DNA of 64,000 nt. Source: an uncultured Candidatus Saccharibacteria bacterium (GTDB taxonomy: Bacteria > Patescibacteriota > Minisyncoccia > Phycocordibacterales > CSBR16-119). Numbering within the stretch: position 1 is the stretch's first letter; each line of letters opens with the position of its first letter. The position numbers and the translations under genes are program-made. This document shows, piece by piece, positions 15,379-38,996 of the stretch. The notes beneath the pieces are model-generated. The model was not told the DNA's origin and did not search any database. It was given only the letters and a program-made list of their open reading frames with translations. The stretch is taken from positions 246,851-310,850 of the forward strand of contig CAZPVH010000001.1 in assembly GCA_964589975.1 (NCBI GenBank). The letters run 5' to 3'.

Positions 15379-16449
15379 ATGAATCAATGGATTTTCTTAA
15401 TAATAGGATTAGTTGTTGGCGGAATTACCCTTTCCCTATTCCGAAACAAGCGCCGACCAGAAGAGACCCAGGGTCTTTTACTAATGCAACAACAACTTTC
15501 AGACTTCACTAAAAAAATTGATACCGCACTATTGGAGAATCGTCGTGACATGAACGACGCAGTTCGTTCCCAGTTTTCCGAATCTCAGAAACTTTTACGA
15601 GAAATCAATGAGCAGATGCAAAAAAATTTGGTTGACGTAACCCGCGAGCAAACAAAAGCTAACGAAGCTACACGTCAATTTATGACCATCGCTGAACAAT
15701 TAGCAAACCTTGAAAAAACGTTAAAACACCAAAAGCAACGTGGTAATTGGGGAGAGGCGTCATTAGAACTTATCCTCCAAAACACATTAGCCCCCGGTCA
15801 ATACACAATGCAGTACGAATTTATCAATAAAGAAAAGGTCGATGCTGTGATTACAACCAAGGAGGGATTAATACCAATTGACGCAAAATTTTCTCTTGAT
15901 AACTATAATCGCATATCGCAAGCAACAGACGAGCGTCAACGTGAAGAGCTTGAAAAAGAATTTAAATCAGATCTTAAAAAACGTATTGATGAAACAGCAA
16001 AATATATTAGACCAAACGAGGGCACTCTGCCTTTTGCGTTTATGTATATTCCAGCTGAAGGAATTTACTATGATTTATTAGTTGGCGAGGTCAATAAAGC
16101 AAGTATTAATGCGCGTAATCTTATTGATTATGCCTACAATGACAAAAAAGTAGTAATCGTTTCGCCCACAACTTTCATGGCTTATTTACAATCGGTTTTA
16201 TATGGCTTTAAAGCATTTAAAATTGAAGAGGGTGCAAAAGATATCATTAAGAGAGTAAATGAACTTGGAAAACATTTAAAAGCCTATGAGGATTATATGG
16301 GTAAATTAGGAAACGCGATCGGTACAACTGTTAACCATTACAACTCTGCATACAAGGAACTTGGCAAAGTAGACAAGGACGTTACTCGAATCACGGGCGA
16401 CACTCCAGGCATAGAGCCAATATTAATAGACAAACCATTCGTTGAATAG
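15379..16449 (+). CDS. rmuC: DNA recombination protein RmuC
   Basis: N-terminal TM, long coiled coil, C-terminal RmuC nuclease-like domain. Confidence 0.85.
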   Translation: MNQWIFLIIGLVVGGITLSLFRNKRRPEETQGLLLMQQQLSDFTKKIDTALLENRRDMNDAVRSQFSESQKLLREINEQMQKNLVDVTREQTKANEATRQFMTIAEQLANLEKTLKHQKQRGNWGEASLELILQNTLAPGQYTMQYEFINKEKVDAVITTKEGLIPIDAKFSLDNYNRISQATDERQREELEKEFKSDLKKRIDETAKYIRPNEGTLPFAFMYIPAEGIYYDLLVGEVNKASINARNLIDYAYNDKKVVIVSPTTFMAYLQSVLYGFKAFKIEEGAKDIIKRVNELGKHLKAYEDYMGKLGNAIGTTVNHYNSAYKELGKVDKDVTRITGDTPGIEPILIDKPFVE

Positions 16450-19319: not shown

Positions 19320-20210
19320 TTAACGTACTGGCTTCTTCCAACAGTCGGTGCCGAGATACCCGACGAAGATCGGCTGCGTGAGAAATGGTCGCGCAACCAC
19401 AGCCAGGAATGGTCGATCAATGGTGTGTGGTTTTGGAGCATCCAAGCTGATACCTCGCGATATCATCATCGCGACAGCACTCTCAACTTTTGCGCCGACA
19501 TGATCCATGCAGAACTTCGTCTGCTGGACGGCTTGGGTGATCACCGCAATACGTCCATCCCTTCCGAAGGTCGAGAGGCCAATCAGCCAGCCGAGATCCG
19601 GTTGCAAATCGAGATCGATCATCGGAAAGATCACGCCTGGATACTGCTGGAGGCTCGGCTTCGTTCCGCTCATGATACGTAGAGCAAACCCGTTGAGCTC
19701 TTCCTCCGCCACGGCCTCGTCGGTCATGGTGAGGTACACAACGTCGCCTGAAACCGTCTCGATCCTCACGATCGGTTCGAAGTGGTCCGGGAGCTCAAGG
19801 AATTCAATTCCTTTTTTGAGCAGCACGGCCGGAAACATCCGGTCCGTATTTTGGAGACGGACACCCGTCTCGATTCCCTTCTCGAGCCATTCGAGCATAA
19901 GCTTCAAGACGCTGGCAATGCCGATCTCTCCCGCAGCTCCAGTTGGTTTGAGTTCGATCACAAACCCACGGTCCCGGAGGAACCTGTTTACTGTGGCAAT
20001 GTCCTGCGAGGCGATGCTCTCAAGTTCAGGCATGTCGGATACTTCATCGCGACCGGGCGCGAAAGCGAGCTCGATGAATTGGTGCTGAACTTCATCAAGG
20101 GCTTTCCAAGGCCGATGTGGTCCAAGTTCCTTTTCGGCAGCCACAAGGGCGCCAACGATCGGATAGACGACAGATGTTGCGGTATTGGTCTTTGTTTGCG
20201 CGGCTTCCAT
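19320..20210 (-). CDS. hypothetical protein (296 aa), GC-rich island gene
   Basis: Preceded by a repeated promoter/5'UTR module. The C-terminus has a faint serpin-like motif that was not trusted. Confidence 0.5.
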   Translation of the reverse strand: MEAAQTKTNTATSVVYPIVGALVAAEKELGPHRPWKALDEVQHQFIELAFAPGRDEVSDMPELESIASQDIATVNRFLRDRGFVIELKPTGAAGEIGIASVLKLMLEWLEKGIETGVRLQNTDRMFPAVLLKKGIEFLELPDHFEPIVRIETVSGDVVYLTMTDEAVAEEELNGFALRIMSGTKPSLQQYPGVIFPMIDLDLQPDLGWLIGLSTFGRDGRIAVITQAVQQTKFCMDHVGAKVESAVAMMISRGISLDAPKPHTIDRPFLAVVARPFLTQPIFVGYLGTDCWKKPVR

Positions 20211-20300
20211 CTTTTGGTTTTTTGAGGTTCTGGAAGTTTGGTTTTTTCTGATGTGATATTACTTAAATTATTTCAAAAGTCAATATGCGTACATATCCCA
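20211..20300 (-). promoter_or_regulatory. repeated promoter/5'UTR module, copy 1 (TTGACT-N16-TAATAT plus a leader with two AAAAAACCAAA boxes)
   Basis: About 90% identical to 22059-22140 over roughly 80 bp. Confidence 0.65.
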
Positions 20301-20348
20301 TAAATATCAAAGGCCGGCAGCTTACGCTGCCGGCCTTTTGCCATATGG

Positions 20349-20609
20349 TCAGATGACCCTGAGGACATGCATCGTGGACGGGAAACCGCTTGGCACCCGT
20401 TGGCTCACATTCATTGCGGTCACATCATCGGTCTTCTTGAAGAGCCATGAACTGCCTCGGAATCCCCCGTGGCCACTGTTGTCACCTGGAAGCGGCATGC
20501 TGATGAAGCGCTCTCCGACTTTCAGCTCACCGAAGCTGAGAGTTTCGAAGAACACCTCCGGTAATTCCATCCATCGCTTTTTGAGCGAAGGTGTCGTCTT
20601 TGTTTCCAT
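20349..20609 (-). CDS. hypothetical protein (86 aa)
   Basis: Preceded by AAAAAACCAAAACA-ATG. A hairpin terminator follows it at 20311-20340. Confidence 0.4.
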   Translation of the reverse strand: METKTTPSLKKRWMELPEVFFETLSFGELKVGERFISMPLPGDNSGHGGFRGSSWLFKKTDDVTAMNVSQRVPSGFPSTMHVLRVI

Positions 20610-20631
20610 TGTTTTGGTTTTTTGGTTTGAC

Positions 20632-20997
20632 CTACGGAATGCTGACGGTGTACTTGATGCGATGCGTTTCTTCAGAAAAAGTGATGATCACTGCATTTCG
20701 CCAAGCTTGCCTAAGCTCTGCAAAGGCGGCCTTGACCTGTCTGGCGTTCTTCAACTTGTATGGGTTGTCGTCATAGTAAAGCGTTCTACCTGATTTCCCA
20801 TATTTGAAGAGGTCGCCGATGATGTCTTCTTCTTTGAGAAGTCGAGAAACGGAAGCTGGCGCAGACTCACGTAGCGATCGCTTGAGAAGTTCTTCTTCCC
20901 TATCAATTCGCTGTACTGCAGCCTGAAAATCCGCAAAGACGCTGAGTCTGGTAGACCGAGCGACCTGAAGAGACGTGGTATCAATTACTCCTGCCAT
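20632..20997 (-). CDS. hypothetical protein (121 aa)
   Basis: Own copy of the TTGACT promoter/leader at 20998-21075. Confidence 0.45.
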   Translation of the reverse strand: MAGVIDTTSLQVARSTRLSVFADFQAAVQRIDREEELLKRSLRESAPASVSRLLKEEDIIGDLFKYGKSGRTLYYDDNPYKLKNARQVKAAFAELRQAWRNAVIITFSEETHRIKYTVSIP

Positions 20998-21075
20998 CGT
21001 TGCTGTTAGATGTTGCTGTTTTTGAGGTGCTGTCGGTTAGGACAATACCAGATTTAATATAAAAGTCAATATAAG
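20998..21075 (-). promoter_or_regulatory. repeated promoter/5'UTR module, divergent copy
   Basis: TATTGACTTTTATATT... and a CCTCAAAAAC leader shared with the other copies. Confidence 0.5.
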
Positions 21076-21266
21076 CCTACGTAAGGGTGTGAGATGATAA
21101 TTTAAAGTTGTGACCCTAAGAGTTGGCTTTCCGAACTTACGAAAAGCTACTCTTTGATTAAAACAAGTATAGCTGATTTCCGGAGTTTAGGGTTAGTTTA
21201 TTCAAAATAAAGCAATACAGGCGCCCCCTTTCGGAAGCGCCTGCAAAGTTACTTGTGTGTCAGTAG

Positions 21267-22058
21267 TCAAACAGCCACGCCATTAAGTTCCGCGATGATA
21301 GGAACTTGTTGTTTGTGGAAGTTGACCACCTCGATAGCTCTTCGTATGTAAGCCTCCTGGTTTACAGTCAGCTCGTCATCGGTAAGAGGCTCGATACTGC
21401 CCTTGAGGATCTTCTTAGCAAGTCCTCCAGAAAGGAGTTCGGTAAAAGCGGTGTCTTCTCCACGCTCAAGCATTCCTCGTAGTCCGTAGAAGTCAGAACG
21501 CTTGAAAAGCATCTCCTGATTGGTGGTGCGGAAATAGTGACCGCCATTTCCACCATCATACGTCCACTGAATGTTTGAATGACAGTGCATCACCCAGTCC
21601 CAACCAGGACAAAGCATCTTGGCTGAGATCCAGTCATATTCCACCTTACTCCTGTCCTTCGCCCCACCGATGTAGATCATGATCTCGTCACCGACTTTGA
21701 AGTGTTTGACGCCGCGGAATCGTGGGAGAACGAACTTTTTCTCATCTGCTTTTGCATGAAGTCGCTTAAGCAGTTTTACAAGTTCGCCCATGTTGTACTG
21801 GACCAGATTGTTACGCGCACTTTTTGCCAGGGCTTCCTCGATGAGAAGGTTCGACTTTCGTTTCTTCTTCTTCAAACTTCTCACTTCTTCTCGGACATCT
21901 TCAAGTTCTTGATATGCTTCGATGATGTGTTCCGAGGCACGAGAAGAAATGGCCTCGATATTAGCGACTCCGAGCGTCTTACTGACTGCCGGAAGTACGA
22001 TCGTAGGTAGTGAGAAAACGACACTTGCGTAGTCCCACAAGTCTTGTTGTTTGGGCAT
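21267..22058 (-). CDS. hypothetical protein (263 aa)
   Basis: Driven by promoter/leader copy 2. A hairpin terminator follows its stop. Confidence 0.5.
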   Translation of the reverse strand: MPKQQDLWDYASVVFSLPTIVLPAVSKTLGVANIEAISSRASEHIIEAYQELEDVREEVRSLKKKKRKSNLLIEEALAKSARNNLVQYNMGELVKLLKRLHAKADEKKFVLPRFRGVKHFKVGDEIMIYIGGAKDRSKVEYDWISAKMLCPGWDWVMHCHSNIQWTYDGGNGGHYFRTTNQEMLFKRSDFYGLRGMLERGEDTAFTELLSGGLAKKILKGSIEPLTDDELTVNQEAYIRRAIEVVNFHKQQVPIIAELNGVAV

Positions 22059-22140
22059 GGTTTGGTTTTTTGAGGTTCTGGAATTGGTTTTTTCTGATGT
22101 GATATTACTTAAATAGTAGGAAAAGTCAATGTTCTGAAAT
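22059..22140 (-). promoter_or_regulatory. repeated promoter/5'UTR module, copy 2
   Basis: Near-identical to 20211-20300. Confidence 0.65.
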
Positions 22141-22214
22141 CATCTAAATTCTTGATTTAATAGCCTATTTTATGTATTCTAATCAGGTCTTTGGGCGTTT
22201 TAAAGCGTCTAAAT

Positions 22215-22289
22215 GGCCCTATCGTCTAACGGTTAGGACGGATCCTTCTCAAGGATTAAATCGGGGTTCGATTCCCCGTAGGGTCACCA
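22215..22289 (+). tRNA. tRNA-Glu (anticodon CUC), CCA encoded
   Basis: Cloverleaf folded by hand: 7 bp acceptor stem, 8 nt D-loop, anticodon loop TTCTCAA, T-loop TTCGATT, 3' CCA. Confidence 0.85.
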
Positions 22290-22344
22290 ATGTTTGTTAG
22301 GTAGCAGTTACGTAAAATAATCTATATTCGGAATCTATCCCATG

Positions 22345-23691
22345 TCAGGAATCTTTATTATTTTTATAATCAAGCCCTTCTCTCTTTATGTTGTTTCGCC
22401 TTCTGGATAGTGATCTAATTTGTTTCTCAATTTTAATATTTTTGAACATTGATAGACTTTTTTTCAGATAATTACTTTTTATCTTGCTTCTCTTACGTAA
22501 GACCGGTTTAAATTTATAGGAAGTATTACCTAACATTTTTTGTACCTTATTTTCCTGCCTGTCTCGCAATTTACCTAAACTTTTCTTCCTCATTAGAATT
22601 TTATCTCCATAGAATTCAAAACCTAAATAATCGATATATTTTCTTCTTTTTAACTTACCATCCCCATCTGTTACTTTTGTTATTATATTTTTATTTAAAT
22701 AAGAAATATTCGTCTTGCCTGGCTGAATCTTGAGATGATTCGTTTTAATTTTTTCTAATAAGAATGTATAAATTTCTTCCTTTTCTGCTTCGGAACAGAC
22801 AATAAAAATATCATCACTATATCTTCTATAAAAAGAATCGGGGAAATTTTTTTTGAACGCCAAATCAAATTCATACATATATATGTTTGAAAATAGTCCA
22901 CTTATAGGACTGCCTTGTGGAATACCAATATTACTTTTACTCTTTTTTATGTAATTTTTTAGTTTTAAATAAACATTTGGGGTACCTTTTTTATTTCTTA
23001 GAACATGCCTTATGTCTGTTTTTTTAAAATCTGGATAGTAATTTATATATTTATATCTTGTAAGGGATTTGTAAATTTTATAAATTAGTGGACCTAACCT
23101 ATTTACAGATAAAATATTTTCTAGATTATTTTTTAGTAAAATATGATTTAATTCATCAAAAAACTTTGTTATATCTGCAGTTATTACTACACATGACTCA
23201 TGTTTTTTTATTTCTTGGAATGCCTCTGATGCAAAATGAATATTGCATTTATTTTTTTGCGGATTCTCTAATGTTGGTACTTTTCTATAAGCAGTTATGG
23301 ATCTATCTATATGATTTGCTTTTATTTTTTTATCATAAAACTCATATACCAGATAATTATAGTAACTGTAAATATACGAGTCGAGATTAGATGCATACAT
23401 TATCGGTCTTTGCTTTTTACTTTTTTGTTTTTCTCTATAAAGACAGCTTTTTATGCAATTTTTCCCAAGCTCAAGTCTTCCACAGTTACATTCTTTGCGT
23501 CTATATCTTATTTCTATGTTGACTCTTTTTATAAAAGGCAGAAATTGATGATTAGTTAAATTTCTAATCGATTTTTCAATTTTTTTTATGTCTTCGTCTC
23601 TATTAAGATCGATTTTGACATCAAAATGTTTATACATTTTGATGTCTTTTTTCTCCTTTAATCCCTGTACCCATTCATCAAACTTATACAT
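22345..23691 (-). CDS. reverse transcriptase (retron/Abi/unclassified-group type), very AT-rich
   Basis: RT motifs ADITKFFD (A/3), GIPQGSPISGLFSNIYM (B/4), YRRYSDD (C/5), KTNI (6), YLGFEF (7). N-terminal about 100 aa extension with CxC-x8-C-x3-C. Basic C-terminal tail. Confidence 0.85.
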   Translation of the reverse strand: MYKFDEWVQGLKEKKDIKMYKHFDVKIDLNRDEDIKKIEKSIRNLTNHQFLPFIKRVNIEIRYRRKECNCGRLELGKNCIKSCLYREKQKSKKQRPIMYASNLDSYIYSYYNYLVYEFYDKKIKANHIDRSITAYRKVPTLENPQKNKCNIHFASEAFQEIKKHESCVVITADITKFFDELNHILLKNNLENILSVNRLGPLIYKIYKSLTRYKYINYYPDFKKTDIRHVLRNKKGTPNVYLKLKNYIKKSKSNIGIPQGSPISGLFSNIYMYEFDLAFKKNFPDSFYRRYSDDIFIVCSEAEKEEIYTFLLEKIKTNHLKIQPGKTNISYLNKNIITKVTDGDGKLKRRKYIDYLGFEFYGDKILMRKKSLGKLRDRQENKVQKMLGNTSYKFKPVLRKRSKIKSNYLKKSLSMFKNIKIEKQIRSLSRRRNNIKREGLDYKNNKDS

Positions 23692-23696
23692 ATGTT

Positions 23697-24057
23697 AAAA
23701 CGAAAAAACCCGTCTACTTTAATACAAGCCGTAATTAAAGACGTAAACGGGTTTCTATCATACTATTCATTACCCTATAAACAAGTTGAGCTTGTAAATG
23801 GGTTCCGGTGTTATATATTTGCCGGGGCTTGGATCAAATTATGTTAATATCATGATAAGTCAAATAATTCAGTTCCTCTTAGGTGTAAACCTGCGAGATG
23901 AACTATCGGCTTTAGCAGAATATTATTATTCATTTGTTTGTTGGGTCTCGTGTTATTCACACGGAGATTTGCAAACAATCATAAATATTTTTTCTAGCTC
24001 ATCTAAATAGGAGAAATCATTGCGAATAGTCGAATAAATAACCCTAAAAAAGCTAGT
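23697..24057 (-). ncRNA. candidate structured leader/ncRNA of the RT locus (about 330 nt)
   Basis: TTGCCA-N16-TATAAT promoter on the minus strand at about 24064-24091. Several stem-loops. Strong hairpin plus U6 (23697-23750) immediately before the RT ATG. Confidence 0.35.
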
Positions 24058-24115
24058 AAAAATATTATACAGGACACGCCACTTTTGGCAAAATTTAGTG
24101 TGGTAAGATTGCTTA

Positions 24116-24676
24116 ATGAAATTCCGTTATATTATTTTTGCTTTTATTCTCTTCTGCGCTTGGCTAGTACTCTCTATCATTCGCTATGCGGATAATTCCG
24201 AGGCGGCTGGTGACAGCGCCATAGTGCTCGGCGCCGCCGCGTGGAACGGAAAGCCGTCTCCGGTTTTCAAGGCACGCATAGATCACGCTATAGAGCTTTA
24301 TAAAGAGGGCTCTGTTCAGAAAATATATTTTACTGGTGGGACTGACTATGCCGACCAAACATCTGAAGCTGAAACTGCTCGTAACTATGCGGTGGAGCGT
24401 GGCGTTAATGTAGCCGATACTGAAATGGAGACGAAATCCCAAACCACCATGGGTAATCTCATGAACATCTCTCCGCTTATATCTCCTGCAGAAAAAGTAT
24501 TAATTGTTACTGACCCACTCCACGAATACCGAGCCGTACGAATGGCAAAGAGACTCGGCATGGACGCTCACCCATCGCCCACACCGTACACAAAATATGA
24601 GTCAGTGAAAACACAGATTCCATTCCTCATCCGTGAGACATATTTCATGATTATATTTTGGCTGTTCGGAATCTAG
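24116..24676 (+). CDS. DUF218 (YdcF/SanA/ElyC-like) family protein
   Basis: N-terminal TM, then a DUF218-like core (VLGAA ... GG). Confidence 0.6.
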   Translation: MKFRYIIFAFILFCAWLVLSIIRYADNSEAAGDSAIVLGAAAWNGKPSPVFKARIDHAIELYKEGSVQKIYFTGGTDYADQTSEAETARNYAVERGVNVADTEMETKSQTTMGNLMNISPLISPAEKVLIVTDPLHEYRAVRMAKRLGMDAHPSPTPYTKYESVKTQIPFLIRETYFMIIFWLFGI

Positions 24677-27202: not shown

Positions 27203-28000
27203 TCATTCAAGTACAAAGATCTGTTGGGTCTCGAATTTCTCATCGGCCTCATTGATCGCCTGCTGACCAGCTTCCATGATGTTGGTTCCCTTCAGGGTTC
27301 CATGGCCCTTTTCAAAGGCCGCATCGACGGTTTGCGATACTTCATGGGACCGGATGAGGTGATGCAAGAATTCGGCGACCGATCCATGATTCCATGTCTC
27401 GAAGATGAATGTATCACCTACACTGAACTTGTCAGCCTTGATCGAGTCACTCCAGTTAATCCGATCACCGAAGGCGGTCTTAATTTCCTCGTTGGTTTCC
27501 TCATCAACATAGTCGAGTTCAAAGATCGGGGTATCTCCGTGCCCTCCTGTATGACTAGCATGGAACTTTATTTCATGGCCATCATCAGCGCATTTGAGCC
27601 GAGCCTTGTCGTGATGCCAGTCATAGCAGAATGAAATGGCATTGATGGACCGAGTGAAGCAAACCTTTGCCCCAGAGTCCTGCAGACGGAGGAATTTCTT
27701 CCCTTCGTATTCTTCCACGACAAACGTGATCTCGACTCGATACTGCCTTCTGGTTCCGTACCGCCCCGCTGCAACTTCCTGGAGCAGCCAGTACAAGAAA
27801 AAGTTGAGAAGATCCGCGGCCTGACTTTCAATCCAAGATCGATCACCGCTAGTCTCCTTGAGAGCATGCTCCGAAACGACCCTATCCATAGCGGCGATCT
27901 TGTCGAGAAGATCAGATTTCGGCACGTTATCAAAGGCATCTTCCACACATGTGGCCTGGAGAAGCTTCGTATGAAGCTCGTCGAAGTCTTTTGTAGCCAT
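27203..28000 (-). CDS. hypothetical protein, GC-rich
   Basis: Start reset to MATKDF at 28000 to avoid an overlap with the methyltransferase gene. Confidence 0.45.
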   Translation of the reverse strand: MATKDFDELHTKLLQATCVEDAFDNVPKSDLLDKIAAMDRVVSEHALKETSGDRSWIESQAADLLNFFLYWLLQEVAAGRYGTRRQYRVEITFVVEEYEGKKFLRLQDSGAKVCFTRSINAISFCYDWHHDKARLKCADDGHEIKFHASHTGGHGDTPIFELDYVDEETNEEIKTAFGDRINWSDSIKADKFSVGDTFIFETWNHGSVAEFLHHLIRSHEVSQTVDAAFEKGHGTLKGTNIMEAGQQAINEADEKFETQQIFVLE

Positions 28001-28064
28001 ATTTTCTGTTTTGTTTTCTAGGCCTAGGATACGCCAAAAAAGCTGTCTGTCAATGCGGCCAGGA

Positions 28065-28814
28065 CTAAACTTTCCTAAGAACCAGACACATGAAAAGTGG
28101 GATTTCTTTTCGCGCATGGTCTTCCATTTTGGCATGGAGTCCAGCGCTTTTTCTATGCGAGATCCATTCTTCTATTTTCACAATTCCAAATCCTGCTTTT
28201 GAAAAAGCCTTCGAGTATACCTGAAGTGGCCTGTGGTAACTCAGGGTCACTTCTTTATCAGTCTGCTTGCCGGGGGTCATATCAATTTTAATTTCCATTT
28301 CGGACATATATGCATCGACATGGCGGTATTGAACTTTTTTATCCGTATCAGTTCCCCATCCAGAATGCTGCGGAACACGGAATGATGGATGATTGAGAAC
28401 GATCACAACTTTGCCATCGTCTTTGATAAGTCTTTTTAGATTGTCTGCGACTGCCGCAAGGTTCTTCATATTCTGTAGCGCAAGTACTACCGTGATTACA
28501 TCAAACTTTTGTCCCGGAAGGAGTTTAGGATCTTCGGCGTTGCCGACCATAAATTTCGCCTTCGCACTTTTCTTCTGGGCGATCTCGATTAGCTGTTTGC
28601 CGAGATCGACACCGACAACACGATTCGAGATTTTCGCGAAATTTTCTATAAAATACCCCTGCCCGCAGCCGAGCTCAAGAAGGGACTCATTCGCCTTCAG
28701 ATTAACGATTCGTTCCAAATTCGGCGCCACCACCTGCGCATGGTAAGTATTATCACCGTCTAGGTGCTTGTCGTACCAATCAGCCACATTTCCCCAGGAG
28801 GTTTCTTTTTTCAC
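28065..28814 (-). CDS. class I SAM-dependent methyltransferase
   Basis: LELGCGQGYF motif I and a VVGVD acidic loop. Confidence 0.75.
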   Translation of the reverse strand: MKKETSWGNVADWYDKHLDGDNTYHAQVVAPNLERIVNLKANESLLELGCGQGYFIENFAKISNRVVGVDLGKQLIEIAQKKSAKAKFMVGNAEDPKLLPGQKFDVITVVLALQNMKNLAAVADNLKRLIKDDGKVVIVLNHPSFRVPQHSGWGTDTDKKVQYRHVDAYMSEMEIKIDMTPGKQTDKEVTLSYHRPLQVYSKAFSKAGFGIVKIEEWISHRKSAGLHAKMEDHARKEIPLFMCLVLRKV

Positions 28815-37298: not shown

Positions 37299-38996
37299 CT
37301 ATCTTTCCAAGAAAACCCTGGCCATCTGGACATCAAAATACGACGCGCCTTTAATTTTGCTTTTGACCGGCGAGAGATTCAGTTCTTCAGTTTTGTTATA
37401 AATTTCCTGAAAGGCATTCAGGCACTCTTTAAACTTCTTTGTCTTGGGCCGGAGATATTCGATGCGATCAATGGAGCACAATCCGGTCATAAGAAGCTTC
37501 TCAATATGGTTCAAAACTGTTTCTTTGGTCAGCCCCCTCTCTACCGCGATCTCGTCGATTGATTTTTGCGCGTTGATTAGGACAAGGGTCTTCTCAAAAG
37601 TTGACGTTCGTTTCTCTTCCTCCTCTTTAGCTTTAATGTCGATTGCTTTTATAGATCCTCCGGAGCGCTGGATGAATTCCTCATGCGATTTTTGCATCTC
37701 TTCCGGAGATTTTTTCGAAAGGTATTCGAGTATCTGCTCAGACTTCTTGCGGAAGCGAACATCGGCTTCGATAATCTTTGGATGAACCATGAGGGCGTTC
37801 GCGTTGAAACCAAGGAGCGATAGGCCCGCCAGCGTCCGGACGCGCGAAAGCGCCACGTAGCCCTGTCCGTATTCAAAGGCTTTCCCCAGGTCAATCTCGG
37901 CGGCATCTAGGCTCATGCCCTGGCTCTTGTGAACCGTAATAGCCCAGGCCAGGCGTAAAGGAACTTGGATTATGGAAGCCAAGACTTTATCGCCATCCTG
38001 GACACTCCAGGAGTCAGGCTCAATCACGATCTCCCGACCGTCGTTTGTTATGACAAGTGGATATCCCGTATCATCGTCGAAGCCAATGACTTCGGCGATA
38101 GTGCCATTCACATATCCGGCTTCAAAATTATTCTTCGTACACATAACAACAGCGCCGACTTTGAGACACAGGCTTTCCGGAGAGAGGCAGGTTTCTTTTA
38201 AGCGCTCAACGTACTTCGCCTTACCTCGGGAATCCATTTCAAAATATTGTTCCTCTGTCTCTAGCTTTTCCAGCTCGACGGAGTTTATTTGATCAACATT
38301 AGCGTTGTGAGTATAGAGCTTCGTTGCTTTTACAGTATCTTCAAACGGGACATGAAGCCTGTCGTGTAAATCCTCAAATTCTTCTTCGACTTCGCCTCGA
38401 CGAATACGATCAAGGACGGAGAGAAGCGCATCATCTTCTTGACGGTGTTGTTCGGTTATATAGGCGACCAACGGATTCATTTCCGCCCAACTCTTTGATT
38501 CAAAGGCAAACTTTGCTTCCTCGCCTTTCTTTGAAATTGGCGGAAGCTGGAAGAAGTCGCCTACTAGAACTACTTGTAGCCCGCCGAATGGGAGTTCATT
38601 GCGCCTGAAGCCCTTGCAGACTTTGTTCACGGAATCCAGGAGTTCAGCCGAGAGCATGGAAATCTCGTCAATGATAAGAACTTTCGTCTTGTCGTAGCGG
38701 CTCCAGAGATATTTCTTGCCTTCGAGCTCGTCGACTTCATAATCAGTAATATTTTGCCGGACACCGATGCCTGACCAGGAGTGAATGGTCACACCGCCAA
38801 TATGCGTCGCGGCAATGCCGGTTGAAGCGGTGATAGCGACAGGAATATCGTGCTCACGGAGATACTGCGTGTATTGATTCAAAACATAAGTCTTGCCCGC
38901 CCCCGGCGCACCGGTCAAGAATACATTTGCGCCAGATTTCAATATTGTGAGAGCTTCCGCTTGGGTCATAGGATTAAATTTTAGCACGAAAAGCAA
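37299..38996 (-). CDS. Pif1/RecD-family SF1B DNA helicase with a C-terminal HTH-like tail
   Basis: Walker A GAPGAGKT and the Pif1 signature GDFFQLPPI. Confidence 0.8.
   Translation of the reverse strand: MLFVLKFNPMTQAEALTILKSGANVFLTGAPGAGKTYVLNQYTQYLREHDIPVAITASTGIAATHIGGVTIHSWSGIGVRQNITDYEVDELEGKKYLWSRYDKTKVLIIDEISMLSAELLDSVNKVCKGFRRNELPFGGLQVVLVGDFFQLPPISKKGEEAKFAFESKSWAEMNPLVAYITEQHRQEDDALLSVLDRIRRGEVEEEFEDLHDRLHVPFEDTVKATKLYTHNANVDQINSVELEKLETEEQYFEMDSRGKAKYVERLKETCLSPESLCLKVGAVVMCTKNNFEAGYVNGTIAEVIGFDDDTGYPLVITNDGREIVIEPDSWSVQDGDKVLASIIQVPLRLAWAITVHKSQGMSLDAAEIDLGKAFEYGQGYVALSRVRTLAGLSLLGFNANALMVHPKIIEADVRFRKKSEQILEYLSKKSPEEMQKSHEEFIQRSGGSIKAIDIKAKEEEEKRTSTFEKTLVLINAQKSIDEIAVERGLTKETVLNHIEKLLMTGLCSIDRIEYLRPKTKKFKECLNAFQEIYNKTEELNLSPVKSKIKGASYFDVQMARVFLER

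What the first reader, a model, noticed from the sequence alone, without database searches (positions are those of the whole stretch)
22345..24110. Orphan AT-rich reverse transcriptase with its own promoter and a roughly 330 nt structured, terminator-capped leader, inserted beside tRNA-Glu
The RT gene (22345-23691, minus strand) is far more AT-rich (roughly 28% GC) than its surroundings (about 45%). It carries complete RT motifs 1-7, with YSDD. It has an unusual Cys-containing N-terminal extension (CxC-x8-C-x3-C) and a long basic C-terminal tail. It has no maturase or endonuclease domain, and there is no room for intron domains V and VI, since only about 55 bp separate it from the tRNA. Upstream on the same strand a TTGCCA-N16-TATAAT promoter at about 24064-24091 would start a transcript of about 330 nt. 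That transcript has several stem-loops and ends in a strong hairpin plus U6 directly before the RT ATG. This ncRNA-then-RT layout, with the RT reached only by read-through, is the architecture of retrons and of ncRNA-templated defence RTs (DRT2- and DRT9-like). The unit sits 55 bp from tRNA-Glu, which is typical of island integration. No obvious co-oriented effector gene is adjacent.
Basis: partly seen in the sequence, partly recalled or inferred. Interest (0 to 1): 0.75.

Follow-up and report, generated by a model that had tools for sequence, protein, structure and literature searches.

The report
Divergent DRT2 reverse-transcriptase defence module
This is a divergent member of the known DRT2 anti-phage systems in a Patescibacteria (candidate phyla radiation, CPR) genome: a reverse transcriptase plus an upstream structured RNA whose 147-nt template, if copied round and round into DNA, would assemble a promoter and an endless hydrophobic gene, which explains why no effector gene lies next to it.

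Summary
There is an intact 448-aa RT (22345-23691, minus) at 23-30% GC in a 45-50% GC chromosome. A TTGCCA-16-TATAAT promoter and a ~355-nt structured leader precede it, and the leader ends in a hairpin plus U6 just before the RT ATG.

The RT is a DRT2 (UG2) enzyme. It scores 330 bits on the PADLOC Drt2 model against 85 for the next family. The KpnDRT2 cryo-EM structure is the best PDB match by sequence and by fold.

The leader is conserved upstream of seven homologous RTs (49-62% identical to the window RT) and shows compensatory base-pair changes and a long-range pseudoknot. It carries the DRT2 "hidden gene" signature:
- a 147-nt template (23840-23986) bounded by a direct ATTT repeat;
- joining copies head to tail gives TTGCAA-17-TAATAT across the junction;
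- one antisense frame is stop-free and encodes 49 hydrophobic codons.

All seven homologous loci show the same logic, with units of 129-153 nt, all multiples of 3.

It differs from KpnDRT2-like systems: no ACA motifs, a longer unit, the ATG 1 nt after the -10, a clade-specific 4-Cys insertion, a Patescibacteria host, and a score below NCBIfam's Drt2 cut-off. No products were measured. It is a new variant of a known kind.

The parts
24086..24091 (-). -35 box TTGCCA of the ncRNA/RT promoter
   Evidence: 11/12 match with 16-nt spacer. It lies in sequence shared with relative L172, which lacks the module at this position.
24064..24069 (-). -10 box TATAAT of the ncRNA/RT promoter
   Evidence: A -10 element is present at the same aligned position in all seven homologous loci (exact TATAAT in five, TATTAT and TAAAAT in two).
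23703..24057 (-). DRT2-type noncoding RNA (about 355 nt; ends inferred from the promoter and the U-run)
   Evidence: Fold z = -4.4. Conserved and covarying in 8 loci.
23993..24057 (-). 5' handle hairpin (ACUAGCU...AGCUAGA)
   Evidence: Helices 1-2 have 7 of 11 pairs with compensatory changes. Top hit (17.7 bits, E~0.01) of a model built only from the broader Patescibacteria-clade handles.
24024..24030 (-). Pseudoknot 5' strand ACUAUUC, in the handle loop
   Evidence: Pairs with 23762-23768. 7-8 of 8 positions pair in all 8 loci, with compensatory changes at four positions.
23983..23986 (-). Direct repeat 1 (AUUU), first bases of the template; proposed landing/alignment site, analogous to ACA-1
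   Evidence: ATTT is invariant at this column in all 8 loci.
23840..23986 (-). Predicted template region, 147 nt (49 codons)
   Evidence: Distance between the two ATTT repeats. Units in homologues are 129, 132, 147 and 153 nt, all multiples of 3.
23840..23986 (+). Predicted neo repeat unit: YVNIMISQIIQFLLGVNLRDELSALAEYYYSFVCWVSCYSHGDLQTIIN, stop-free across the junction
   Evidence: Only one of six circular frames is open, and 6% of shuffled units are open. GRAVY +0.55.
23969..23974 (+). neo -35 box TTGCAA, near the 3' end of the cDNA unit
   Evidence: The aligned box is TTGACA, TTGCCA, TTGCGA or TTTACA in homologues.
23845..23850 (+). [quoted passage not shown]
   Evidence: The positional homologue of TATAAT-C-ATG in L087-L090.
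23852..23854 (+). Conserved in-frame ATG of the neo frame
   Evidence: An ATG 0-1 nt after the -10 is present in all 8 loci.
23836..23839 (-). Direct repeat 2 (AUUU), immediately 3' of the template; analogous to ACA-2
23805..23825 (-). Scaffold hairpin A (CCGG...CCGG)
   Evidence: A hairpin at this place forms in most loci from different sequences.
23773..23802 (-). Scaffold hairpin B (CCCAUUUACAAG...CUUGUUUAUAGGG)
23762..23768 (-). Pseudoknot 3' strand GAAUAGU
23703..23754 (-). Terminal long hairpin plus U6 (scaffold element and likely attenuator before the RT gene)
   Evidence: Helices 4-5: 19 pairs, 8 with compensatory changes. Present in all 9 loci, including L091.
22345..23691 (-). DRT2-family (UG2) reverse transcriptase, 448 aa
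23443..23490 (-). Clade-specific 4-Cys insertion (C68, C70, C79, C83), in a loop joining two long beta strands of the N-terminal fingers region
   Evidence: Invariant in 9 sequences and absent from all other homologues and from KpnDRT2. The model is confident here.
22810..22821 (-). Catalytic YSDD

Best explanation
The unit at 22345-24091 (minus strand) is a two-part DRT2-type anti-phage system: one promoter, a ~355-nt pseudoknotted ncRNA, and a UG2-clade reverse transcriptase.

Inferred mechanism, by analogy with KpnDRT2:
1. The RT binds the 5' handle and the 3' scaffold of its ncRNA.
2. It reverse-transcribes the 147-nt template (23986 to 23840).
3. At the template's 5' end, the nascent cDNA end (AAAT) re-anneals to the second AUUU just 3' of the template.
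4. Repeated rounds yield a head-to-tail concatemeric cDNA.
5. Once the cDNA is double-stranded, each junction joins TTGCAA and TAATAT with a 17-nt spacer.
6. The resulting transcript carries one endless frame of 49 hydrophobic codons per repeat (a Neo-like protein) that arrests the infected cell.

Shown here: family membership of the RT; conservation and covariation of the ncRNA; the repeat, promoter and open-frame signature in 8 of 8 loci.

Inferred: every biochemical step, the exact jump site, the trigger, and toxicity.

An alternative junction (ATGAT repeat, 129-nt unit, TTGCAA-17-AATAAT) also satisfies the rules but is not the positional homologue of the junction in relatives.
For: RT family.
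- PADLOC Drt2 scores E = 7e-99 and 330 bits over nearly the full length; the next family (UG17) scores 85 bits.
- NCBIfam Drt2 is the top hit.
- PDB phmmer: best hit is DRT2 9c0i, E = 3e-33, aligned over residues 20-417.
- The AF2 model has pLDDT 93.5. Its best Foldseek hit is 9c0i_A at E = 8e-27 and TM 0.75/0.78; DRT9 follows at 1e-10.
- PGAP-named drt2 genes match at 27-33% identity.

ncRNA.
- It aligns upstream of seven homologous RTs that are 49-62% identical to the window RT.
- 17 of 37 consensus pairs carry compensatory changes. 93% of cells pair against 83% in shuffles (0 of 500), and against 39-50% when partners are slid.
- The pseudoknot CUAUUC/GAAUAG covaries: CUAUUU/AAAUAG and CUAUCCC/GGGAUAG in other loci.

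Hidden gene.
- Window: 147-nt unit, ATTT repeat, junction TTGCAA-17-TAATAT, one open frame.
- Homologues: units of 132, 129, 129, 147, 147, 153 and 153 nt, each with a 4-8-nt direct repeat, a 17-nt spacer, TTGACA-like and TATAAT boxes, and exactly one open antisense frame.
- The full signature appears in 0.5-4.5% of shuffled leaders. An open circular frame appears in 5-10% of shuffled units.
- Among about two dozen loci of the broader Patescibacteria clade that were scanned (about 40% RT identity), several (L012, L016, L098, L104, L108, and L007 on a looser box call) show a GTTAT(CA) repeat, 141-150-nt units, TTGCAA-17-TATAAT, and the same frame through the -35 (L-Q plus 4 codons to the junction in L104, as in the window). 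Several others gave no clean call.
- Predicted units are hydrophobic, GRAVY 0.55-1.08, as published for Neo (PMC12039810).
- Positive control: the same scan on a PGAP-annotated Drt2 locus returns one hit, TTGACA-17-TATAAT with a 111-nt unit. That length is reported in PMC12039810.
Against: - No RNA, cDNA or phenotype data exist for this clade.
- The window's junction boxes are weak: each matches 4 of 6 consensus positions.
- A second junction (129 nt) fits the rules equally well on paper.
- No ACA-1/ACA-2 motifs are present.
- The conserved ATG sits 1 nt after the -10, with no Shine-Dalgarno sequence. A transcript started at that promoter would miss it and would have to initiate in the next repeat.
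- Substitutions between related units show no third-codon-position excess (11/9/12). Selection is visible only as an open frame, a length divisible by 3, and hydrophobicity.
- The NCBIfam Drt2 score (286) is below the curated cut-off of 390.
- Sigma-70-type boxes are assumed to be valid for Patescibacteria.
Confidence: 0.75

Rival explanations
1. It is a DRT2-family RT and ncRNA that makes concatemeric cDNA, but the effect does not depend on a translated Neo protein. For example, the repetitive DNA or RNA itself could titrate polymerase, ribosomes or phage factors.
For: The ATG lies 1 nt after the -10, with no Shine-Dalgarno sequence. Related units show no synonymous-site excess. Tang et al. 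note that Neo annotation was difficult in divergent DRT2 clades and suggest alternative mechanisms (PMC11100668).
Against: The unit length is a multiple of 3 in 8 of 8 loci, which fall into 5 sequence groups. Exactly one stop-free antisense frame is kept in AT-rich sequence, where 90-95% of shuffles have none. Hydrophobic composition is conserved.
Confidence: 0.12
2. The leader is only a structured 5' UTR or attenuator of the RT gene, and the 70-codon plus-strand ORF (23798-24010) is a conventional small gene or a chance ORF.
For: A linear ORF with an ATG exists on the plus strand. The terminal hairpin plus U-run looks like an attenuator.
Against: The linear ORF overlaps conserved ncRNA helices. 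The out-of-order -10 and -35 boxes, the 17-nt spacing across the junction and the flanking direct repeats recur in all homologues. This signature is specific to the DRT2 mechanism and is recovered in an annotated Drt2 control.
Confidence: 0.04
3. It is a retron, or a DRT9-like system, producing msDNA or homopolymer cDNA.
For: The layout is the same: ncRNA upstream of an RT, with no maturase.
Against: Retron RT models score at most 30 bits and Drt9 58 bits, against 330 for Drt2. Retron and DRT9 structures are far weaker fold matches, TM 0.34-0.47. No retron effector gene is present.
Confidence: 0.02
4. It is a degenerate group II intron RT.
For: RVT_1 domain. Weak hit to group_II_RT_mat, 78.6 bits.
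Against: The score is far below the 300-bit cut-off. No maturase or endonuclease domain is present. No intron ribozyme match was found in 22000-24400, even at E <= 10. Only 55 bp lie downstream of the ORF.
Confidence: 0.01

Closest known systems
KpnDRT2 / KpnDRT2-like DRT2 systems (Tang et al. 2024, PMC11100668; Wilkinson et al. 2024, PMC12039810; PDB 9c0i)
   Same: - UG2-clade RT with a fingers insertion and a long helical thumb.
- One promoter driving the ncRNA and then the RT.
- 5' handle, central template and pseudoknotted 3' scaffold.
- Template flanked by a short direct repeat.
- Unit length divisible by 3.
- -10 near the cDNA 5' end and -35 near its 3' end, giving a 17-nt spacer only across a repeat junction.
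- A single stop-free, hydrophobic antisense frame.
- No protein effector gene.
   Different: - 26% identity to the KpnDRT2 chain in the structure-based alignment, and below NCBIfam's equivalog cut-off.
- The jump repeat is AUUU (AAUAU, AUUUCAAU or UAAUUU in relatives) instead of ACA.
- The unit is 147 nt rather than 111-129 nt.
- The junction lies 12 nt after the -35 and 5 nt before the -10. From the published box positions, the KpnDRT2 junction appears to lie about 6 nt after the -35 and 11 nt before the -10.
- The ATG lies 1 nt after the -10 with no RBS, rather than 13 nt downstream with an RBS.
- The pseudoknot joins the handle loop to the 3' scaffold.
- A 4-Cys insertion is present in the fingers.
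- The host is Patescibacteria.
Broader Patescibacteria DRT2 clade found here (L007-L016, L094-L108)
   Same: Handle sequence ACUAGCU...AGAUGAGCUAG. Long-range pseudoknot. 141-150-nt units. TTGCAA-17-TATAAT junction. The same reading frame through the -35.
   Different: About 40% RT identity. No 4-Cys insertion. The handle is a three-way junction. The jump repeat is GUUAU(CA). A covariance model of their handle finds the window's handle only weakly (17.7 bits).
DRT9 and DRT10 (ncRNA-templated class 2 UG RTs; PMC12483538, PMC12632851)
   Same: RT plus upstream ncRNA, with repetitive DNA synthesis used as defence.
   Different: Those systems are protein-primed and make a homopolymer or a short tandem repeat; DRT10 has a SLATT effector. 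Here the Drt9 and UG17 models score 58 and 85 bits, against 330 for Drt2.
Retrons
   Same: ncRNA followed by an RT, with a defence role.
   Different: No effector gene. The RT clade does not match. The template logic is different.

Membership tests
DRT2 (UG2) defence system, broad sense | RT belongs to the UG2/DRT2 clade | tested here: met
   PADLOC Drt2 330 bits, next family 85. Best PDB match by sequence and by fold is DRT2 9c0i.
DRT2 (UG2) defence system, broad sense | Passes the NCBIfam equivalog model NF041746 (cut-off 390 bits) | tested here: not met
   286.4 bits. It is the top hit but below the cut-off, so PGAP would not name it Drt2.
DRT2 (UG2) defence system, broad sense | Structured, pseudoknotted ncRNA directly upstream on the same strand under a shared promoter, and no effector gene | tested here: met
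   Transcription itself was not measured.
DRT2 (UG2) defence system, broad sense | Template bounded by a short direct repeat, with unit length divisible by 3 | tested here: met
   ATTT...ATTT, 147 nt. 8 of 8 loci have units divisible by 3.
DRT2 (UG2) defence system, broad sense | Promoter reconstituted only across the repeat junction | tested here: met
   TTGCAA-17-TAATAT in the window (weak boxes). TTGACA, TTGCCA or TTTACA-17-TATAAT in homologues.
DRT2 (UG2) defence system, broad sense | One stop-free antisense frame running through the junctions (neo) | tested here: met
DRT2 (UG2) defence system, broad sense | Concatemeric cDNA made in vivo, Neo toxicity, phage defence | not testable with these tools
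   This needs cDNA sequencing and infection assays.
KpnDRT2-like subclade | Conserved ACA-1/ACA-2 trinucleotides flanking the template | tested here: not met
   No ACA lies between the ncRNA start (about 24057) and the -35 box. The repeat is ATTT.
KpnDRT2-like subclade | RBS and ATG about 13 nt downstream of the -10 | tested here: not met
   The ATG is 1 nt after the -10, with no Shine-Dalgarno sequence.
Retron | Retron-clade RT with an adjacent effector | tested here: not met
   Best retron model scores 30 bits. The neighbours are tRNA-Glu and a DUF218 gene.
Group II intron | RT-maturase equivalog and ribozyme domains | tested here: not met
   78.6 bits against a 300-bit cut-off. No Rfam intron hit at E <= 10.
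DRT9 | Drt9-clade RT | tested here: not met
   58.5 bits. Fold TM 0.44-0.47.

The most novel reading that the evidence does not exclude
The 4-Cys sub-clade (nine RT clusters found among about 5.8 billion protein clusters) may be a mechanistically distinct DRT2 variant. A zinc-knuckle-like insertion in the RNA-handle-binding fingers, A/U-only alignment repeats instead of ACA, and a start codon abutting the -10 could together imply two differences from KpnDRT2. One is a different way of registering the template jump. The other is a different way of expressing the product: initiation only from the second repeat onward, or no translation at all. This would be in Patescibacteria, where no DRT mechanism has been studied.
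Probability: 0.2. Interest if true: 0.6.

Novelty: new variant of a known kind. Interest (0 to 1): 0.45.

Why it matters
DRT2 is the case in which a gene exists only after reverse transcription of a noncoding RNA. The original studies could annotate Neo confidently mainly in the KpnDRT2-like clade, and they left open whether divergent clades use the same trick.

Here the whole signature is recovered in a distant, AT-rich Patescibacteria lineage that lacks the ACA motifs: a direct repeat, a length divisible by 3, a junction promoter and an endless hydrophobic frame. This suggests that the principle is older and more flexible than the motif.

The signature also gives concrete, testable predictions: a 147-bp repeat and a defined junction. 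It also shows annotators that an "orphan RT without effector" next to a structured leader may carry its effector antisense in that leader.

Tried and rejected
- Rfam (E <= 10) over 22000-24400 gave only the tRNA, with no known ncRNA family and no intron.
- A search for tRNA-derived or other flanking direct repeats (att sites) around 22290-24110 found none. The only repeat spanning both ends is a 12-nt match inside the ncRNA, probably chance.
- A metagenome scan with the sub-clade profile added no new 4-Cys members; L092 and L093 duplicate loci already held.
- Automatic choice of the best -35 and -10 boxes without homology anchoring picked spurious TTGNNN boxes and was discarded as a test.
- RNAduplex on long segments was too noisy to score the pseudoknot. 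It was replaced by an explicit pair table.
- Codon-position analysis of related units gave no signal.
- A handle covariance model from the broader clade missed the window with default filters. It found the window only with filters off, at 17.7 bits.
- Relatives with 94%-identical DnaK are not syntenic beyond DnaJ, so they could not serve as empty-site controls.
- A second DUF218 relative (L178) has a different neighbour.
- 4-Cys geometry could not be measured because model coordinates are not exposed.
Full report
**What is there**

The minus-strand ORF at 22345-23691 encodes a 448-aa protein. Its only Pfam domain is RVT_1.

GC falls to 0.23-0.30 across the gene and 0.30-0.34 across the 400 bp upstream. 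The flanks are at 0.43-0.55.

tRNA-Glu(CTC) lies at 22215-22289 on the plus strand, 55 bp beyond the RT stop. A DUF218 gene starts at 24116.

The best promoter-like site in the region is TTGCCA-16-TATAAT at 24091-24064 on the minus strand.

The transcript predicted from this promoter (about 24057-23703) folds at -89.9 kcal/mol, z = -4.4 against shuffles. It ends in a long hairpin plus U6, 11 nt before the RT ATG.

- The leader is about 355 nt, not 330.
- The Cys motif is an internal insertion, not an N-terminal extension.
- The basic "tail" is the helical thumb.

**Which RT**

- PADLOC's Drt2 model matches at E = 7e-99 and 330 bits over nearly the full length. The next family (UG17) scores 85 bits, Drt9 58 bits, and retron RTs 30 bits or less.
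- NCBIfam Drt2 is the top hit at 286 bits, below its 390-bit equivalog cut-off. The group II RT-maturase model scores 79 bits against a cut-off of 300.
- Among solved structures, the best sequence match is the K. pneumoniae DRT2 RT (9c0i, E = 3e-33, residues 20-417).
- An AlphaFold model built on 115 homologues has pLDDT 93.5. Its best fold match is 9c0i_A (E = 8e-27, TM 0.75/0.78). DRT9, G2L4 and group II RTs follow at E of about 1e-10 or weaker.
- PGAP-named drt2 genes on plasmids match at 27-33% identity.

The RT is therefore a divergent member of the DRT2/UG2 family.

**What DRT2 does (literature)**

In KpnDRT2 one promoter drives a ~280-nt pseudoknotted ncRNA and the RT. The RT copies a ~120-nt template repeatedly, jumping between two ACA motifs, and makes concatemeric cDNA. 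Once this is double-stranded, each junction joins a -35 and a -10 box. The transcript carries a stop-free "neo" ORF, antisense to the ncRNA, whose product arrests growth. Unit lengths are multiples of 3: 111, 117, 120 and 129 nt (PMC11100668; PMC12039810).

**Is the leader a DRT2 ncRNA?**

The protein search found nine close relatives (49-62% identity) and many at about 40%, mostly from Patescibacteria MAGs. DNA upstream of seven close relatives was retrieved.

The leaders align end to end. In order, they share:
- a -10 element (TATAAT or a one-mismatch variant);
- a 5' handle hairpin;
- a box that reads TTGACA-like on the opposite strand;
- a variable middle;
- a box that reads TATAAT-like on the opposite strand, followed there by an ATG;
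- two scaffold hairpins;
- a long terminal hairpin with a U-run.

RNAalifold predicts 37 pairs, 17 of them with compensatory double changes. On that structure 93.2% of cells pair, against 82.8% in column shuffles (0 of 500 reach this) and 39-50% when partners are slid by 1-3 columns.

A long-range pseudoknot joins the handle loop to the 3' scaffold. It reads ACUAUUC/GAAUAGU in the window, GCUAUUU/AAAUAGC in L005 and CUAUCCC/GGGAUAG in L087. 7-8 of 8 positions pair in every locus, with compensatory changes at four positions.

The ~40% clade has a homologous pairing that also covaries: CUUAUAUU/AAUAUAAG, CUUGUAUU/AAUACAAG and CUUGCAUU/AAUGCAAG (read by eye from the alignment).

A covariance model built only from that clade's handles gives its top hit exactly on the window's handle (23990-24059 minus, 17.7 bits, E about 0.01; the next hit scores 9.5 bits). 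This required filters off. Rfam has no matching family.

**The hidden gene**

Antisense to the leader there is a long open stretch. A 4-nt direct repeat ATTT sits at 23986-23983 and at 23839-23836, 147 nt apart.

Joining copies of the intervening unit head to tail gives ...TTGCAA ACAATCATAAAT|TATGT TAATAT C ATG.... This is a -35 and a -10 separated by exactly 17 nt. One frame has no stop: YVNIMISQIIQFLLGVNLRDELSALAEYYYSFVCWVSCYSHGDLQTIIN, 49 codons. The other five circular frames are closed.

The same construction works in every close homologue:

| Locus | Direct repeat | Unit (nt) | Junction boxes |
|---|---|---|---|
| L002 | AATAT | 132 | TTGCGA-17-TATAAT |
| L005 | ATTTCAAT | 129 | TTGACA-17-TATAAT |
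| L086 | ATTT | 129 | TTGCCA-17-TATAAT |
| L087, L089 | AATTT | 147 | TTGACA-17-TATAAT |
| L090, L006 | TAATTT | 153 | TTTACA-17-TATAAT |

Each of these has exactly one open antisense frame.

The complete signature (boxes, 17-nt spacer, repeat of at least 4 nt, unit divisible by 3, open frame) appears in 0.5-4.5% of shuffled leaders. An open circular frame appears in 5-10% of shuffled units.

The eight loci fall into five sequence groups whose units are essentially unalignable. The window unit is 32% identical to that of L087.

In the ~40% clade, several of the about two dozen loci scanned (L012, L016, L098, L104, L108) show a GTTAT(CA) repeat, units of 141-150 nt and TTGCAA-17-TATAAT. L007 fits the same unit on a looser box call. 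The reading frame through the -35 is the same...L-Q plus four codons to the junction in L104, as in the window. Several other loci of that clade gave no clean call.

Predicted units are hydrophobic, GRAVY 0.55-1.08, as reported for Neo.

As a positive control, the same scan on a PGAP-annotated Drt2 locus from a Photobacterium plasmid returns a single solution. It is TTGACA-17-TATAAT with a 111-nt unit, a length listed in PMC12039810.

**Ambiguities**

- The window's junction boxes are weak. Each matches 4 of 6 consensus positions.
- A second junction also obeys the rules: ATGAT repeat, 129-nt unit, TTGCAA-17-AATAAT. I prefer 147 nt for three reasons. TAATAT-C-ATG is the positional homologue of TATAAT-C-ATG in L087-L090. 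The ATTT of repeat 1 is invariant in the alignment. The junction falls at the same codon distance from the -35 as in the wider clade.
- The conserved ATG lies 0-1 nt after the -10 and no Shine-Dalgarno sequence is visible. A transcript from a given junction promoter would first meet that ATG in the next repeat. This differs from KpnDRT2.
- Substitutions between related units show no third-position excess. Protein-level selection is visible only as openness, length and composition.

**Differences from KpnDRT2-like systems**

- No ACA motifs.
- A longer unit.
- The junction is placed 12 nt after the -35 and 5 nt before the -10.
- A pseudoknot involving the handle loop.
- A 4-Cys insertion (C68, C70, C79, C83), invariant in the nine closest sequences and absent elsewhere, including KpnDRT2. 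In the model it occupies the loop joining two long strands (residues 53-65 and 88-99) in the N-terminal fingers region. In KpnDRT2 a fingers insertion docks the 5' handle (PMC12039810). A zinc-knuckle contact with the handle is an inference and was not tested.

**Context and origin**

DnaK in the window is 87% identical to DnaK of named Paceibacterota/Patescibacteria MAGs. The surrounding genes are housekeeping genes: GatB, Obg, GAPDH, DnaK/DnaJ and Ham1.

The nearest relative with the same DUF218-to-beta-lactamase gene order is L172 (DUF218 81% identical). In L172 tRNA-Glu lies 85 nt upstream of DUF218, with no RT or ncRNA between them. The tRNA has the opposite orientation, and the contig ends inside it.

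Homology between L172 and the window stops near 24083. It therefore includes the -35 TTGCCA but not the -10. The module appears to use a host -35 together with its own -10.

No integrase and no flanking tRNA-derived repeat is present. None of the seven homologous loci has a tRNA in the DNA held. Their neighbours differ between loci: a serine recombinase, a Rep gene, and pilus genes.

The module is therefore compositionally foreign and patchily distributed. Integration into the tRNA as the route of entry is not demonstrated.

**Verdict**

This is a DRT2-type RT-ncRNA defence module whose effector is the predicted neo-like gene hidden antisense in the leader. The kind is known. This lineage is a distinct variant. 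All biochemical steps remain inferred.

Noticed in passing
window 23617-23646: A perfect 13-bp palindrome (GACATCAAAATGT TTAT ACATTTTGATGTC) lies inside RT codons 16-25. On the plus strand it is followed by a T-run and scores as terminator-like. The same hairpin (14 bp) is kept in the closest homologue L002, is 9 bp in L005, and is absent from the others. It could control RT translation or stop antisense transcription.
   Followed up: partly
window 24083-24096 vs L172:79-92: The -35 of the ncRNA promoter lies in host sequence shared with a relative that has no module here. In that relative the same TTGCCA is the -35 of a TTGCCA-18-TAGAAT promoter facing tRNA-Glu. The window promoter therefore looks like a hybrid of a host -35 and a module -10.
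   Followed up: partly
window 22215-22289 vs L172:1-28: tRNA-Glu has the opposite orientation relative to DUF218 in the window and in relative L172. This implies an inversion or a more complex rearrangement together with the gain or loss of the module. The L172 contig ends inside the tRNA, so this stays unresolved.
   Followed up: partly
L087:462-1751, L089:4351-4894, L002:87-8658: Homologous modules sit in unrelated contexts. One has a large serine recombinase 1.2 kb upstream. Another has a Rep (RepSA/REP_ORF2-G2P) gene on the same 7-kb contig. A third is inside a type IV pilus/T2SS gene cluster.
   Followed up: no
L176:11927-12310: A relative with 94%-identical DnaK carries a bAvd/23S_rRNA_IVP-family gene between dnaK and dnaJ. 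The window has none there. Synteny beyond dnaJ is lost.
   Followed up: no
window 19320-22058 and 27203-28135: Several sizeable ORFs near the module have no Pfam match: 296 aa, 121 aa, 263 aa and 310 aa. A RmuC gene (15379-16449) and a PIF1 helicase gene (37299-38996) lie in the wider neighbourhood.
   Followed up: no
window 23935-23946 vs 22291-22302: A 12-nt direct repeat (TGTTTGTTGGGT / TGTTTGTTAGGT) links the inside of the template with the base just 3' of the tRNA. It is probably chance. It is the only repeat spanning both ends of the module.
   Followed up: no
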